From an uncultured Enterobacteriaceae bacterium (GTDB lineage: Bacteria > Pseudomonadota > Gammaproteobacteria > Burkholderiales > SG8-39): 64,000 nucleotides of DNA. Numbering within the stretch: the stretch's first letter is position 1; the number at the start of each line of letters is the position of its first letter. The position numbers were made by a program, and so were the translations under genes. The notes below the pieces were generated by a model that was given only the letters and a program-made list of their open reading frames with translations, had not been told where the DNA came from and did no database searches. Shown here in pieces: positions 57,001 through 60,552 of the stretch. Where the stretch lies: assembly GCA_964612335.1 (NCBI GenBank), contig CAZTDU010000007.1:20800-84799 (forward strand), written 5' to 3'.

Positions 57001-58624
57001 CGGCACGCTGAACCTCGCCAGTGGCAACGGCACGATCAGCACCGGGCTCACGTCTTCGAGCGGCACGATCAGCCCGTCTTCCGGCCGCACGCTGAACGTC
57101 GCCGGCACCGGGCTCGCGTGGCAGGGCGGCACGCTTGCCGGCGCCGGCACCTACAACCTGACGGGCGGCTTGTCGATCAGCGGCAGCGGCTCGCGCGTGC
57201 TGAACGGGCCGACGTTAACGGTCAACAACCTCAACCTGCCCGGCGGCAGCCTCGACGTGCAGGCCGGCACGCTGAACCTCAACGGCACAACGACCATCGC
57301 GTCCGGATCGACGCTGATGTTCTCCGGCGGCACGCTGAATCTGGGGGGCGCGCTCAACAACAACGGCACCTTCGACGTCAACACCGGCACCTTCACCCTC
57401 GGCAACGGCGGCACCTCGACCGGCACCTTCGACGCCGCGAGCGGCGCGACGATCAATTTCTCCGGCGGCACGCACGACCTGGGCGACGGATCGAAGCTCG
57501 CCGGGGCGGGAACGATCGGCTACACCGGCGGCACCGTGAACATCACCGGCAGCGGGTCGGGCACGACGATCGCGTCGGGCGCGACGCTGAACGCGAACGG
57601 CCGGACCTTCGGCGGCACCGGCAAGCTCGTCAACGAAGGCACGTTCAACCTCGCCACGAGCACGGTCTCCGGCGCACTCGACAACAAGGGCACGCTGAAC
57701 GCCTCCGGCGCGAGCGCCGTCAACGGCGCGCTGGCCCTGACTTCCGGCACGCTGGACCTCGCCGCCGGCGGCACGCTGACCAAGGGCGGCGCCGCGGCGA
57801 ACTGGATCGGCGGCGGAATCACCGGCACCGGCAGCTACTCCGGCGGGCTCGCGTTCTCGGGCAGCGGCGCGCGCACGCTGAACGGGCCCACGCTGAACCT
57901 CGGCGCCACCACGCTCCCGGGCGGCAGCCTCAAGGTGCAGGGCGGTGCGCTGAATGTCACCGGCACCGCGACCATCGCCAGCGGCGCGACGCTGCAGGCC
58001 GCGGGCGGCGCGATCACCGCGACCACGATCGACGTCCTCGCCGGCGGCACGCTGTCCGGCACCGGCACCATCGACGCGAACGTGGTCAACGCCGGCAGCG
58101 TGGCAGTGGGCGCCTCCGCCGGTACCCTCACGGTCGACGGCGACTACACGCAAGCCGCGTCAGGCGTGCTGGACATGGAGCTGGGCGGCACGTCGCAGGG
58201 CACGAGCTACGACCTGCTGAAGATCACCGGCGGCGCGAGCCTCGGCGGCACGCTGAAGCTGAGCCTGATCGACGGCTTCACCGGCGCCGCCGGCAACACC
58301 TTCGACCTGCTTACTTATGCCAGCCGCAGCGGCGATTTCGCCACCTTCACGCTGCCCAGCGGTTACACGTTCAGCAGCGCGCCGAACGCGACTTTCTACC
58401 GCATGACGCTGGACGCGCTGCCCAGCACCTCGACCGCCGCGTCCTCGACCACCGCGTCCTCCACCACCGCGTCCTCGGGCGTGCAGGCGCTCACGTCGTC
58501 CATCACGGCGTCGCTCGCGCTGTCGATGCGACAGCTCAACGACTCCTTCCTGGTCGCGGTCGAATCCGGCGACCAGGCGCTGGACGAGGAGAACCCGCTG
58601 TCCGCCGGGCTGTCGTGCCGCTGA
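54011..58624 (+). CDS. TPS-domain (filamentous-haemagglutinin N-terminal domain) exoprotein, TpsA-like, 1537 aa
   Basis: Started at ATG 54011 inside ORF 53777..58624. Signal peptide MRRHGLVAALLLAVPLGSIA. TPS-domain motifs: ITNWQGFSIG-like IINWQGFSIG, VLNRVVG, FLLNPHGIVFG. Long Gly/Thr/Asn-rich beta-helix-type repeats follow. No VENN motif was seen. Confidence 0.9.
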   Translation: MRRHGLVAALLLAVPLGSIANPTGPQVTAGGASFHAAPGALTVTNAPGTIINWQGFSIGTGELTRFQQQSAASAVLNRVVGPDPSSILGTLSSNGRVFLLNPHGIVFGAGSRIDTAGLVASTLNMRDEDFLAGRLKFEGGGHGVLRNEGAIRAGGDIFLVGPRIENAGAIVSDAGSVVLAAGRSVNITSPDAHGVQFALQAPEDSAVNLGTISAANAASMFAGTLRHSGDIRATSASVDAAGRVVLAAQKDAILGGNATISVDNAAGKGGSVQITGERVGLFDSASVSARGASGGGEILIGGDYQGKNPDVPNAARTFVAGGVTLDADATASGNGGKVIVWADEVTRYYGSASVRGGAQRGDGGLVEVSGKQALEFRGRAALEAPQGVAGTLLLDPLNITVQAGAGTLDGHLTPPGDATLAFGDASGVSGTLDTAELAAFTSGTVELQADNDITVNAAVTMASGVNLKLAAINNVNVNSNITTSGGGNLRLEADTDASGAGVITLGSVTINAPLIAGDTGKEFSGKVTIGGNVSFGENAEAFGKLTYSTGGLSVASGRTLTLKGGMDWSFSNSTISGPGTLSLPSGQTLAMTGGGAHNLSGLTFNNAGTVTSSLNNNTLFVNDSAIFNNSGTYRFINGHDAIGTNSGTGTFNNTGTIANNGNFATVVNPTTFTNNGGTLNSNTGNLSLSGGGSHSGSLTMQGTDVRFSGGTHNFADSTTVSGQLNVTGGTSSFGSVTTSGLVSYSGGAMNITSGDTLTLNGGMNWSFINSTISGPGTLSLPSGQTLAMTGGGAHNLSGLTFNNAGTVTSSLNNNTLFVNDSAIFNNSGTYRFINGHDAIGTNSGTGTFSNTGTLESGGAFTNAVSSVTFNNNGGTLSSGASGTLNISTGGSHSNAMTVTNGNVRFTGGTHTFSGASFAGTGAINLQGATFQFGNTNWNRSLAFSSGTVTLQAGTTTTVPSGASIAINHAVGGTGTLSNAGTVDLSGGSIAGSFTNNGGTLNLASGNGTISTGLTSSSGTISPSSGRTLNVAGTGLAWQGGTLAGAGTYNLTGGLSISGSGSRVLNGPTLTVNNLNLPGGSLDVQAGTLNLNGTTTIASGSTLMFSGGTLNLGGALNNNGTFDVNTGTFTLGNGGTSTGTFDAASGATINFSGGTHDLGDGSKLAGAGTIGYTGGTVNITGSGSGTTIASGATLNANGRTFGGTGKLVNEGTFNLATSTVSGALDNKGTLNASGASAVNGALALTSGTLDLAAGGTLTKGGAAANWIGGGITGTGSYSGGLAFSGSGARTLNGPTLNLGATTLPGGSLKVQGGALNVTGTATIASGATLQAAGGAITATTIDVLAGGTLSGTGTIDANVVNAGSVAVGASAGTLTVDGDYTQAASGVLDMELGGTSQGTSYDLLKITGGASLGGTLKLSLIDGFTGAAGNTFDLLTYASRSGDFATFTLPSGYTFSSAPNATFYRMTLDALPSTSTAASSTTASSTTASSGVQALTSSITASLALSMRQLNDSFLVAVESGDQALDEENPLSAGLSCR
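55724..55959 (+). repeat. 236-bp perfect direct repeat, copy 1 (inside tpsA-like gene)
   Basis: By my reading it is identical base-for-base to 56315-56550. It encodes NSTISGPGTLSLPSGQTLAMTGGGAHNLSGLTFNNAGTVTSSLNNNTLFVNDSAIFNNSGTYRFINGHDAIGTNSGTGT. Confidence 0.85.
56315..56550 (+). repeat. 236-bp perfect direct repeat, copy 2
   Basis: The offset from copy 1 is 591 bp, which is exactly 197 codons, so the two copies are in the same reading frame. Confidence 0.85.

Positions 58625-60552: not shown

What the first reader, a model, noticed from the sequence alone, without database searches (positions are those of the whole stretch)
58615..60552. Double-FecR protein with paired-cysteine motifs after each FecR block and a long unassigned C-terminal region
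Seen in sequence:
- There are two FecR-like beta-sandwich blocks. Each ends in a G(T/I)RGTE(F/L) strand followed directly by a Cys pair (RGTEFDARLCDGDCAAAD and RGTELVANCTANCESTPP).
- An 11-residue proline run (PPKPPPPPPPP) follows.
- About 390 residues follow with no pattern I recognise. They are rich in short beta-like segments and Pro/Thr linkers, and end with a third partial FecR-like segment (GLYTWVRDGAITLEKDGTMIEVTAGSAALAG) and a C-terminal Cys (GSCRVQ).
- There is a signal peptide but no transmembrane anchor and no anti-sigma N-terminal domain.

So this is not a FecR-type anti-sigma factor. It looks like a soluble periplasmic or secreted protein. Its position between tpsA and tpsB suggests a chaperone, plug or sensor role for the secretion pair (inference).
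Basis: partly seen in the sequence, partly recalled or inferred. Interest (0 to 1): 0.6.

Follow-up and report, generated by a model that had tools for sequence, protein, structure and literature searches.

The report
Cysteine-tipped periplasmic partner of TpsA
This gene encodes a soluble periplasmic protein that is a conserved, undescribed third component of a two-partner secretion system; it and the secreted TpsA each carry one unpaired cysteine at the C-terminal end, which suggests the two are disulfide-linked so that TpsA stays tethered to the cell.

Summary
The ORF at 58615-60552 is real. It has a signal peptide, two homologous FecR domains (each ending in RGTE-x-CxxxC) and a proline run. 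It has no transmembrane or anti-sigma domain.

The "unassigned" 339 residues resolve into two parts:
- One copy of a rare ~190-aa repeat. Close relatives carry three copies, and only 9 proteins among 1.84 billion representatives match it.
- A family-wide ~150-aa C-terminal domain (CTD), an internally duplicated beta-meander that ends in a flexible tail with one invariant cysteine.

The proposed third FecR-like segment is not supported.

New findings:
- The family occurs in at least 453 species genomes and always accompanies a TpsB.
- Gene order is tpsA-fecR-tpsB, tpsB-fecR-tpsA, or fecR-tpsB with an orphan tpsA elsewhere in the genome.
- 47 of 50 adjacent TpsAs end in a lone cysteine within their last 5 residues. 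None of 5 TpsAs without such a neighbour do.
- 118 of 120 family members have an odd cysteine count.
- The FecR fold matches the periplasmic plug domain (RIN) of type I-secreted adhesins.

Best reading (inferred, about 0.45): a trans-acting retention subunit that is disulfide-coupled to the C-terminus of TpsA. No paper in the searched library describes this.

The parts
50612..53713 (-). Divergently transcribed BTAD-AAA_16-TPR (SARP/LAL-like) transcriptional regulator. It occupies the same position in the closest syntenic locus, L002.
   Evidence: Pfam BTAD 1.2e-24, AAA_16 1.3e-26, TPR_12; same arrangement in L002.
54011..58624 (+). tpsA: secreted TpsA exoprotein of 1537 aa counted from ATG 54011. 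The TPS secretion domain is encoded at about 54155-54760, followed by beta-helix repeats.
   Evidence: Pfam TPS 5.5e-27 and TIGR01901 9e-21; start position.
58616..58618 (+). TGC codon for the only cysteine of mature TpsA, at position -2 from the C-terminus (...GLSCR*). Proposed partner of C642 of the FecR-like protein.
   Evidence: A terminal Cys is conserved in 31/31 upstream and 16/19 downstream TpsAs of related loci. It is absent from 5/5 TpsAs that lack a FecR neighbour.
58615..60552 (+). Gene for the double-FecR periplasmic protein (645 aa). It is translationally coupled to tpsA through a GTG start that overlaps the tpsA stop.
58615..58701 (+). Sec signal peptide (aa 1-29, predicted cleavage AQA|Q).
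   Evidence: It is the only hydrophobic window in the protein; AF2 models aa 5-27 as a helix.
58702..59073 (+). FecR block 1 (aa 30-153), ending in RGTEFDARL-C149-DGD-C153.
   Evidence: Pfam; AF2 pLDDT >90; C149 and C153 are invariant.
59107..59490 (+). FecR block 2 (aa 165-292), ending in RGTELVAN-C288-TAN-C292. Its N-terminal half matches the RIN / LapA retention-module domain.
   Evidence: hhalign block 1 vs block 2 E=1e-45; NCBIfam retention_LapA 3.8e-6 at aa 169-229, below the curated cut-off; family profile vs PDB chain 5ix9 E=1.2e-6; Foldseek vs 5ix9 TM 0.77, rmsd 1.0 A.
59500..59532 (+). Proline run PPKPPPPPPPP (aa 296-306), a linker.
59533..60105 (+). One copy of a lineage-restricted ~190-aa repeat (aa 307-497: LGxxGEVRLPNGVVLETR...GEPIGxLPDGTPLYA...EW...TTLADG...helix). 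The nearest relatives P0002-4 and P0029 carry three copies.
   Evidence: blastp; repeat alignment A4; profile search of 1.84 billion representatives gives 9 hits, 6 of them strong; AF2 confidence is low here.
60106..60549 (+). Family-wide C-terminal domain (aa 498-645). It consists of two homologous ~45-aa four-stranded beta-meander units (498-548 and 565-612), a P-x-F-x-x-D-x-x-P-x-P segment, and a flexible tail.
   Evidence: Conserved in the ~450-aa core family; internal duplication, hhalign 97.5%; AF2 pLDDT 82.7; no significant PDB fold match. It occurs as a stand-alone 108-aa protein in Variovorax.
60538..60540 (+). TGC codon for C642, the lone unpaired cysteine in the low-confidence C-terminal tail.
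   Evidence: Invariant column; 115/120 homologues have a Cys in the last 8 residues; 118/120 have an odd number of mature Cys; pLDDT <50 for aa 638-645.
60618..61423 (+). Inserted type II toxin-antitoxin pair: Phd/YefM antitoxin at 60618-60911 and PIN toxin at 60908-61423. It is not part of the system and is absent from the syntenic locus L002.
   Evidence: Pfam PhdYeFM 3.6e-8, PIN_3 8e-17. In L002 the fecR stop and the tpsB start are 5 nt apart.
61420..62961 (+). tpsB: Omp85-family TpsB transporter with POTRA_2 and a ShlB barrel. The mature protein contains no Cys. The ancestral ATG start reads ACG here, so the start codon is uncertain (ATA 61420, ACG 61423 or CTG 61441).
   Evidence: Pfam; alignment with the L002 TpsB; scan for in-frame start codons; sequence.

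Best explanation
The protein is a Sec-exported, soluble periplasmic third subunit of a two-partner (type Vb) secretion system.

Proposed mechanism:
1. TpsA is threaded through TpsB.
2. The last residues of TpsA (...SCR-COOH) remain on the periplasmic side.
3. The single cysteine there forms an intermolecular disulfide with the single unpaired cysteine (C642) in the flexible tail of this protein's C-terminal domain.
4. The folded protein cannot pass the TpsB pore. Its bulk comes from two FecR beta-sandwiches, which are of the same fold and family as the RIN / retention-module plug of LapA-type adhesins, each closed by a CxxxC pair.
5. It therefore acts as a covalent stopper supplied in trans, and keeps TpsA displayed on the cell surface instead of released.
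6. The Pro-rich linker and the variable-length insert act as a spacer.
7. Release could occur by reduction or proteolysis.

What is shown: the domain anatomy, export signal, conserved association with TpsA and TpsB, the conserved lone cysteines in both partners, and homology to the plug domain.

What is inferred: the disulfide itself, the topology, and retention as the outcome.
For: **1. Dedicated TPS component**
- tpsA-fecR-tpsB with overlapping stop and start codons recurs in relatives of only 36-45% identity.
- Among 80 genome loci taken from at least 453 species, the gene always sits beside a TpsB, in the order tpsA-fecR-tpsB or tpsB-fecR-tpsA.
- Where no TpsA is adjacent (Ramlibacter sp. 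AN1133), the same assembly encodes an orphan short TpsA on another contig, with no TpsB next to it.

**2. Paired lone cysteines**
- The window's mature TpsA has exactly one Cys, at -2.
- 31/31 upstream and 16/19 downstream TpsAs end with a Cys in their last 5 residues, while the flanking residues diverge: LSCR, LECK, GECR, GACR, NCP, ETCRP, LECN, QECGI.
- In L003 and L005 the Cys codon lies outside the start/stop overlap, so the overlap does not force it.
- 0/5 TpsAs without a FecR neighbour have a terminal Cys.
- 118/120 family members have an odd mature Cys count, and 24/26 short TpsAs that end in a Cys have exactly one mature Cys.
- The mature TpsB proteins have no Cys.

**3. Position and separability of the partner Cys**
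- C642 lies in a low-confidence, presumably flexible tail.
- It is retained at the same position relative to the CTD even when a 300-aa extension follows it.
- In Variovorax the Cys-bearing CTD unit is a separate 108-aa secreted protein next to a TpsA that ends in MYCN*.

**4. Plug homology**
- NCBIfam retention_LapA 3.8e-6.
- The only PDB sequence hit of the family profile is 5ix9 (E=1.2e-6).
- Foldseek vs 5ix9: TM 0.77, rmsd 1.0 A.
- 5ix9 is MpIBP RIN, described as a periplasmic domain too large to pass the TolC pore, which prevents release of the adhesin (PMC5550230). The LapA retention module was modelled on it (bioRxiv 10.1101/198937).

**5. Precedent within TPS**
- HMW1 and HxuA are held in their TpsB by a small periplasmic C-terminal domain containing a disulfide (PMC5422565).
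Against: - No experiment or complex model shows the disulfide.
- The retention_LapA hit is below NCBIfam's cut-off (27 vs 50 bits). FecR-type anti-sigma domains match the model equally well (6ovk, 4m0n), so homology to a plug domain does not prove plug function.
- In the Variovorax variant the Cys-bearing unit is separate from the FecR domain, so the bulky domains are not always the covalently attached part.
- 3 of 19 downstream TpsAs lack the terminal Cys. These may be MAG frameshifts, which was not checked.
- The orphan-TpsA explanation for fecR-tpsB-only loci was verified in one genome only.
- The control set of TpsAs without a FecR neighbour is small (n=5).
- In this window a TA insertion has removed the canonical tpsB start codon, so this particular copy may be poorly expressed.
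Confidence: 0.45

Rival explanations
1. A non-covalent periplasmic accessory factor. It would act as a chaperone or holdase for unfolded TpsA, or as a gate or regulator that docks on the TpsB POTRA domains. All cysteines would serve structural or transient roles rather than a stable TpsA link.
For: Conserved synteny and translational coupling. The fecR-tpsB pair is the invariant core, and TpsA can be encoded elsewhere. In anti-sigma factors FecR domains are protein-protein interaction modules (structures 6ovk and 4m0n are the top fold hits).
Against: It does not explain why both partners keep exactly one unpaired Cys at their C-terminal ends. It also does not explain why TpsAs without this neighbour lack the Cys. 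An unpaired Cys in exported proteins is generally selected against (established knowledge of the DsbA-oxidising periplasm).
Confidence: 0.22
2. A redox- or metal-responsive switch. The two CxxxC motifs would bind a metal or act as a thiol-disulfide exchange centre that resolves or forms a bond at TpsA's terminal Cys. This would control maturation or release rather than act as a passive stopper.
For: The first CxxxC is essentially invariant (119/120) and the second is frequent (104/120). Each sits where the last strand of a FecR block turns into a short helix.
Against: The second motif is dispensable in 16/120 members. There is no thioredoxin-like fold and no known metal-site family match. Cx3C pairs at the end of a beta-sandwich are as easily explained as local structural disulfides.
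Confidence: 0.12
3. The protein is itself exported to the cell surface, either as a TpsB substrate or as a co-secreted passenger disulfide-linked to TpsA.
For: fecR-tpsB pairs exist without an adjacent TpsA. The T/P/G-rich repeats and Pro linkers resemble surface proteins.
Against: It has no TPS secretion domain. Two disulfide-closed, well-folded beta-sandwich domains are unlikely to pass an Omp85 pore. An orphan TpsA exists in a genome that has only fecR-tpsB at the locus.
Confidence: 0.07
4. A FecR-like sensor that transmits a periplasmic or surface signal to the divergently encoded BTAD-AAA-TPR regulator.
For: FecR domain. A regulator gene lies next to the operon here and in L002.
Against: It has no transmembrane segment or cytoplasmic domain to carry a signal across the inner membrane. 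The regulator is absent from most related loci. No ECF sigma factor or TonB-dependent transducer is nearby.
Confidence: 0.04

Closest known systems
N-terminal retention module / RIN domain of type I-secreted giant adhesins (LapA of Pseudomonas fluorescens; MpIBP of Marinomonas primoryensis, PDB 5ix9)
   Same: The beta-sandwich fold is the same and sequence similarity to FecR block 2 is detectable. Both are periplasmic. The proposed job is also the same: a folded domain too big for the outer-membrane pore that keeps a long adhesin tethered (PMC5550230; bioRxiv 10.1101/198937).
   Different: In LapA and MpIBP the plug is part of the adhesin polypeptide (in cis, at its N-terminus). The pore is TolC-like (type I secretion), and release is by the LapG protease under LapD/c-di-GMP control. 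Here the plug-like domains are on a separate protein and are duplicated, the pore is an Omp85 TpsB, and the proposed link is a disulfide at the adhesin's C-terminus. The NCBIfam score is below the family cut-off.
C-terminal disulfide anchor of HMW1 / HxuA TpsA proteins (Buscher et al. 2006, as summarised in PMC5422565)
   Same: It is a TPS system in which the TpsA C-terminus stays periplasmic, and a disulfide-containing globular element prevents release through TpsB.
   Different: HMW1 and HxuA use two cysteines within TpsA to form an intramolecular loop and need no extra protein. Here TpsA has one terminal Cys and a dedicated partner protein carries the other.
FecR / PupR-type cell-surface-signalling anti-sigma factors (PDB 6ovk; BDI_1681, 4m0n)
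   Same: The Pfam FecR domain (PF04773) is shared, and these structures are the best fold matches for the N-terminal blocks.
   Different: This protein has no cytoplasmic anti-sigma domain, no transmembrane helix, no STN-like C-terminal subdomain, and no ECF sigma factor or TonB-dependent transducer partner. It carries a tandem FecR duplication with CxxxC caps.
Other 'third partners' of TPS systems (HMW1C glycosyltransferase; BcpO of Burkholderia bcpAIOB)
   Same: Each is an extra conserved gene inside a TPS operon that is needed for TpsA function (PMC3983070 abstract; PMC5422565).
   Different: They are unrelated in sequence, location and chemistry. HMW1C is a cytoplasmic glycosyltransferase. 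BcpO is a small lipoprotein or cytoplasmic protein of unknown function.
Periplasmic retention of the FhaB prodomain and the CdiA C-terminal half
   Same: The principle is the same: the C-terminal part of a TpsA is kept in the periplasm while the N-terminal part is displayed (established knowledge; abstracts of PMC4542190 and PMC8263021).
   Different: In those systems retention is intrinsic to the TpsA polypeptide and is resolved by proteolysis or receptor binding. No separate Cys-linked protein is involved.

Membership tests
Pfam FecR domain family (PF04773) | Match to the profile above the gathering score | tested here: met
   72.1 bits vs a cut-off of 24, in two stretches. The precomputed annotation PF04773 is present on all listed homologues.
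FecR/PupR-type anti-sigma factors (cell-surface signalling) | N-terminal cytoplasmic anti-sigma domain followed by a single transmembrane helix | tested here: not met
   The protein starts with a cleavable signal peptide, which is the only hydrophobic window. FecR block 1 begins at aa 30.
FecR/PupR-type anti-sigma factors (cell-surface signalling) | C-terminal STN-like subdomain (FecR_C/DUF4974) that contacts the transducer's signalling domain | tested here: not met
   No Pfam hit in aa 296-645 at E<=10. The CTD model has no significant PDB match.
FecR/PupR-type anti-sigma factors (cell-surface signalling) | Genomic partnership with an ECF sigma factor and a TonB-dependent transducer | tested here: not met
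   The neighbours are tpsA, a TA pair, tpsB and a BTAD-AAA-TPR regulator. The same holds in related loci.
T1SS adhesin retention module (NCBIfam NF033682 retention_LapA; MpIBP RIN) | Profile match above the curated cut-off | tested here: not met
   27.1 bits vs a cut-off of 50, E=3.8e-6, covering model positions 5-65 of 145.
T1SS adhesin retention module (NCBIfam NF033682 retention_LapA; MpIBP RIN) | RIN-type beta-sandwich fold | tested here: met
   Foldseek vs 5ix9: TM (target) 0.77, rmsd 1.0 A over 62 columns, 24% identity. Family profile vs the 5ix9 sequence: E=1.2e-6.
T1SS adhesin retention module (NCBIfam NF033682 retention_LapA; MpIBP RIN) | Located at the N-terminus of an RTX adhesin, followed by a LapG site and a pore-spanning linker | tested here: not met
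   It is a separate 645-aa protein with no RTX or adhesin repeats, encoded in a TPS operon.
Two-partner (type Vb) secretion system | TpsA with an N-terminal TPS domain | tested here: met
   PF05860 5.5e-27 and TIGR01901 9e-21 in the upstream ORF.
Two-partner (type Vb) secretion system | TpsB with POTRA domains and a ShlB/FhaC-type 16-stranded barrel | tested here: met
   PF08479 6.8e-11 and PF03865 1.9e-24 in the downstream ORF. The start codon is non-canonical here.
HMW1/HxuA-type C-terminal anchor | Two cysteines in the TpsA C-terminal ~20-66 residues that form an intramolecular loop | tested here: not met
   The window's mature TpsA has a single Cys, at -2. Related TpsAs have a lone terminal Cys plus, at most, distant close-spaced pairs.
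Proposed trans-disulfide retention triad (this work) | An intermolecular disulfide between TpsA Cys(-2) and the partner's tail Cys | not testable with these tools
   Only co-occurrence and Cys-parity evidence is available. No complex prediction or biochemistry could be done.

The most novel reading that the evidence does not exclude
A widespread 'three-partner' variant of type Vb secretion in Burkholderiales and other Gammaproteobacteria. The secreted TpsA would be covalently captured at its C-terminal cysteine by a separate periplasmic protein built from duplicated RIN/FecR plug domains. This would be a retention module supplied in trans, releasable by redox change or proteolysis. The principle is shared with LapA-type type I adhesins but implemented through an intermolecular disulfide. 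In Comamonadaceae the three genes sit among housekeeping genes, which would make it a core envelope structure rather than an accessory virulence system.
Probability: 0.4. Interest if true: 0.8.

Novelty: new variant of a known kind. Interest (0 to 1): 0.66.

Why it matters
Two-partner secretion is usually taught as needing only TpsA and TpsB. How TpsA proteins are kept on the cell or released is understood for only a few cases: the HMW1 disulfide loop, the FhaB prodomain and CdiA arrest.

This analysis defines a large protein family, found in at least 453 species genomes, that databases label only as 'FecR domain-containing protein'. The family is a conserved third component of such systems. 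The analysis also gives a concrete, easily tested mechanism: one cysteine in each partner.

If the mechanism is right:
- It links the retention strategy of type I adhesins (RIN / retention module) to type V secretion.
- It adds a new role for the FecR fold outside sigma-factor signalling.
- It provides a simple sequence rule for predicting which TpsAs are surface-tethered: TpsA ends in C-x(1-4), and a partner with an odd Cys count is present.
- It offers a handle for engineering surface display or release.

Tried and rejected
- **Third FecR block in the C-terminus.** Rejected: hhalign probability <1% against both blocks.
- **Known domain in aa 296-645.** Pfam at E<=10, NCBIfam, PDB sequence profiles and Foldseek on a dedicated CTD model all gave nothing significant.
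- **Word-indexed homologue search with the insert alone.** It returned only a 136-aa fragment. The exhaustive profile search showed the repeat is genuinely rare.
- **Terminal Cys of TpsA forced by the overlapping GTG start.** Rejected: in L003 and L005 the overlap is ATGA and the Cys codon lies outside it.
- **PA0691, between pdtA and pdtB of P. aeruginosa, as a precedent.** Recalled from memory and rejected: the paper describes it as transposase-like.
- **Lipoprotein.** Rejected: C12 is not in a lipobox and is not conserved.
- **fecR-tpsB-only loci as evidence against a TpsA link.** Weakened: an orphan terminal-Cys TpsA is present in the same Ramlibacter assembly.
- **Literature.** Searches for FecR together with TPS, TpsB, hemagglutinin, ShlB, FhaC, POTRA or CHASE2 found no description of this arrangement. 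The library excludes most subscription journals, so absence there is not proof of novelty.

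
Full report
**1. The observation**

The ORF at 58615-60552 (+) encodes 645 aa. Its GTG start overlaps the last codons of the upstream gene (...TCG TGC CGC TGA). 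The homologous position in the closest syntenic locus carries ATG, which supports this start. The identical protein is on record in public assemblies (P0001).

Domain calls:
- Pfam finds FecR (PF04773) at 72 bits in two stretches.
- The two blocks are clear duplicates of each other (hhalign E=1e-45).

- IGIRGTEFDARLCDGDC at aa 137-153.
- IGTRGTELVANCTANC at aa 277-292.
- PPKPPPPPPPP at aa 296-306.
- GSCRVQ* at the end.

The N-terminal signal peptide is the only hydrophobic segment.

Two details needed correcting:
- 339 residues follow the proline run, not about 390.
- The supposed third FecR-like segment has no profile similarity to the FecR blocks.

**2. Anatomy of the 'unassigned' region**

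blastp against the homologues and alignments split this region into two parts.

*Insert repeat, aa 307-497*
- It is one copy of a ~190-aa unit.
- The nearest relatives (P0002, P0003, P0004, P0029; 1019-1069 aa) carry three copies, separated by Pro-rich linkers.
- A profile of 13 copies, searched exhaustively against 1.84 billion representative proteins, found 9 proteins, 6 of them strongly.
- It is therefore a lineage-restricted spacer module. AF2 models it with low confidence.
- Other long family members carry unrelated, often low-complexity inserts at the same position.

*C-terminal domain (CTD), aa 498-645*
- It is present in the whole family, whose core form is ~440-490 aa (signal peptide, two FecR blocks, CTD).
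- It contains two homologous four-stranded beta-meander units (hhalign 97.5%, E=7e-12), a conserved P-x-F-x-x-D-x-x-P-x-P stretch, and a tail.
- AF2 models it well (pLDDT 82.7). Foldseek finds no significant PDB relative.

**3. Fold of the N-terminal half**

The full-length AF2 model (mean pLDDT 77.6) is very confident for aa 20-295. Its best PDB matches are the periplasmic domains of the anti-sigma factors PupR (6ovk) and BDI_1681 (4m0n), and 5ix9 (TM 0.77, rmsd 1.0 A).

Two independent sequence results point to the same relative:
- The family profile has one PDB sequence hit, 5ix9 (E=1.2e-6).
- NCBIfam gives a sub-threshold hit to the LapA retention module over the same stretch.

5ix9 is the RIN domain of the Marinomonas ice-binding adhesin. 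It is described as a periplasmic beta-sandwich too large to pass the TolC pore, which prevents total release of the adhesin (PMC5550230). The LapA retention module was modelled on it (bioRxiv 10.1101/198937).

**4. Genomic association**

tpsA (TPS domain) lies upstream and tpsB (POTRA_2 plus ShlB) downstream.

The triad tpsA-fecR-tpsB, with overlapping stop and start codons, recurs in relatives at 36-69% identity.

A scan of one genome per species found relatives in 453 genomes. The 80 fetched loci fall into three arrangements:
- **A: tpsA-fecR-tpsB.** Burkholderiales, Rhodocyclaceae, Iodobacter and Aquabacterium. This window belongs here.
- **B: tpsB-fecR-tpsA.** Other Gammaproteobacteria. 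The TpsA is about 2000-3000 aa with DUF5650 repeats.
- **C: fecR-tpsB alone, among housekeeping genes.** Ramlibacter, Caenimonas and other Comamonadaceae.

For arrangement C, a search with a Comamonadaceae TPS domain uncovered many short (~450-550 aa) TpsAs. In Ramlibacter sp. AN1133, the same assembly that carries fecR-tpsB on contig 20 encodes such a TpsA on contig 19. That gene sits among housekeeping genes and has no TpsB beside it. A second genome has the same orphan locus.

The three components therefore travel together, even when their genes are split between loci.

**5. The cysteines**

*In the FecR-like family*
- The first CxxxC is present in 119/120 homologues, a second Cx3-4C in 104/120, and a Cys within the last 8 residues in 115/120.
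- Three of the five exceptions keep the homologous Cys but add a ~300-aa Gly/Ser-rich extension after it. The other two are a protein that NCBI labels partial (P0029) and a member of a cluster that includes a partial record (P0039).
- 118/120 members have an odd number of cysteines after the signal peptide.

*In TpsA*
- All 31 upstream TpsAs in arrangement A end with a Cys in the last five residues.
- So do 16 of 19 complete downstream TpsAs in arrangement B, and the TpsAs of the extended variants.
- The neighbouring residues differ widely between these TpsAs.
- The short orphan TpsAs that end in a Cys nearly always have only that one (24/26).
- The Cys is not an artefact of the overlapping start codon. 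In L003 and L005 the overlap is ATGA and the Cys codon lies upstream of it.

*In TpsB*
- The mature TpsBs have no cysteine.

*Controls*
- Five TpsAs from annotated plasmids and chromids without a FecR-family neighbour were checked: Desulfotalea, Ralstonia, Caballeronia, E. coli and Comamonas.
- None has a Cys in its last six residues.

*An informative variant*
- Variovorax SRS16 plasmid 4 carries tpsB-tpsA-fecR-orf.
- Its TpsA ends in ...MYCN*, and its FecR protein is a single Cys-free domain.
- The next gene encodes a 108-aa secreted protein that is a stand-alone CTD unit ending in ...DCEVR*.
- The Cys-bearing CTD is therefore the module that co-varies with the TpsA terminal Cys.

**6. Mechanism**

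*What is shown*
- The protein is an exported soluble protein made of two plug-type beta-sandwiches plus a conserved tail domain.
- It is genomically dedicated to TPS systems.
- Each partner keeps one structurally unpaired, terminally placed cysteine under strong conservation.

*What is inferred*
- The two lone cysteines form an intermolecular disulfide in the oxidising periplasm.
- The C-terminus of TpsA is the last part to leave the Sec channel and the last to enter TpsB. It would be captured by the flexible tail of the partner (aa 638-645, pLDDT <50).
- The folded partner cannot pass the Omp85 pore, so TpsA stays tethered.

This combines two documented principles:
- The disulfide-containing periplasmic anchor of HMW1 and HxuA (PMC5422565).
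- The RIN / retention-module plug of type I adhesins.

Here the plug is supplied in trans.

I put about 0.85 on 'dedicated periplasmic third component that acts on TpsA/TpsB', about 0.5 on the hetero-disulfide, and about 0.45 on the full retention model.

Rival readings are listed separately with their evidence: a non-covalent chaperone or gate, a redox or metal switch using the CxxxC motifs, an exported passenger, and a FecR-like sensor.

**7. Caveats**
- There is no structural model of the complex and no biochemistry.
- The control set is small.
- Three arrangement-B TpsAs lack the terminal Cys. Possible MAG errors were not examined.
- The split-locus explanation was checked in one genome.
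- FecR anti-sigma domains are as close structurally as RIN.
- The Variovorax variant shows that the bulky FecR domain need not be the covalently attached part.
- In this window a Phd/YefM-PIN cassette has been inserted between fecR and tpsB. The ancestral tpsB ATG reads ACG here, so the local copy may be impaired.

**8. Novelty**

Databases name these proteins only 'FecR domain-containing protein'. Full-text searches found no paper that connects a FecR-domain protein with a TPS operon. The one candidate recalled from memory, PA0691, is transposase-like.

The components (TPS, FecR fold, retention by a periplasmic stopper) are all known kinds. The combination is not: a separate, duplicated plug-domain protein with a cysteine that matches a terminal cysteine on TpsA. 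I therefore rate it a new variant of a known kind, with moderately high interest. It gives a simple, falsifiable rule and makes the question of how TpsAs are retained directly testable in a large, unstudied group of systems.

Noticed in passing
window 60618-61423: A Phd/YefM antitoxin (60618-60911) and a PIN-domain toxin (60908-61423) are inserted between the FecR-like gene and tpsB. In the closest syntenic locus (L002) the two genes are 5 nt apart. Another relative's neighbourhood (L005) also carries a PhdYeFM-PIN pair, but further away.
   Followed up: partly
window 61417-61445: After the TA insertion, tpsB has no canonical in-frame start near its signal peptide. The codon aligned with the ATG of the L002 TpsB reads ACG (61423-61425). 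An ATA (61420-61422) overlaps the PIN stop as ATAA, which resembles the ATGA overlap used for translational coupling. The nearest in-frame ATG (61240) would add 66 residues before the signal peptide. Whether TpsB is expressed in this strain is therefore uncertain.
   Followed up: partly
window 55648-55947 and 56239-56538; also 57144-57334 and 57822-58012: tpsA contains a 300-nt direct repeat at 91% identity, spaced 591 nt apart, and a weaker 191-nt repeat. These are recent internal duplications of beta-helix repeat blocks. A 15-nt Ser/Thr-coding tandem repeat (58428-58477) lies just before the C-terminal tail.
   Followed up: no
window 50612-53713 (-): A large BTAD-AAA_16-TPR (SARP/LAL-type) regulator is transcribed divergently from tpsA. 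It is conserved at this position in L002 but not in more distant loci, some of which have a GerE/LuxR-type regulator instead (L087).
   Followed up: no
L097 8001-9647 (Ramlibacter sp. AN1133) and L098 8001-9560: In Comamonadaceae, short orphan TpsAs (~520-550 aa, with a single Cys near the end) sit in a conserved housekeeping neighbourhood (CTP synthase, dfp, dut ... MBL-fold protein, bamC, dapA) with no TpsB beside them. The fecR-tpsB pair sits next to ubiE, a Tim44-like gene and ubiB. This looks like a core-genome envelope system rather than a mobile virulence locus.
   Followed up: partly
L090 12229-17396 (Variovorax sp. SRS16 plasmid 4): A split variant with four genes: tpsB; tpsA (886 aa, four close-spaced Cys pairs plus a lone terminal Cys); a single Cys-free FecR-domain protein (156 aa); and a 108-aa secreted protein that is a stand-alone copy of the C-terminal-domain unit, ending in DCEVR*.
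   Followed up: partly
L021 11317-18633 and other arrangement-B loci: In the tpsB-fecR-tpsA arrangement the TpsAs carry about 23 DUF5650 repeats and end in a poly-Asp/Glu run immediately before the terminal Cys (for example ...DDDDEDDENLECN*). The acidic tail may matter for recognition by the partner.
   Followed up: no
P0021, P0033, P0042 (homologues; loci L087-L089): Some family members add a ~300-aa Gly/Ser/Thr-rich, probably disordered extension after the conserved tail cysteine. The cysteine is therefore fixed relative to the C-terminal domain, not to the chain end.
   Followed up: partly
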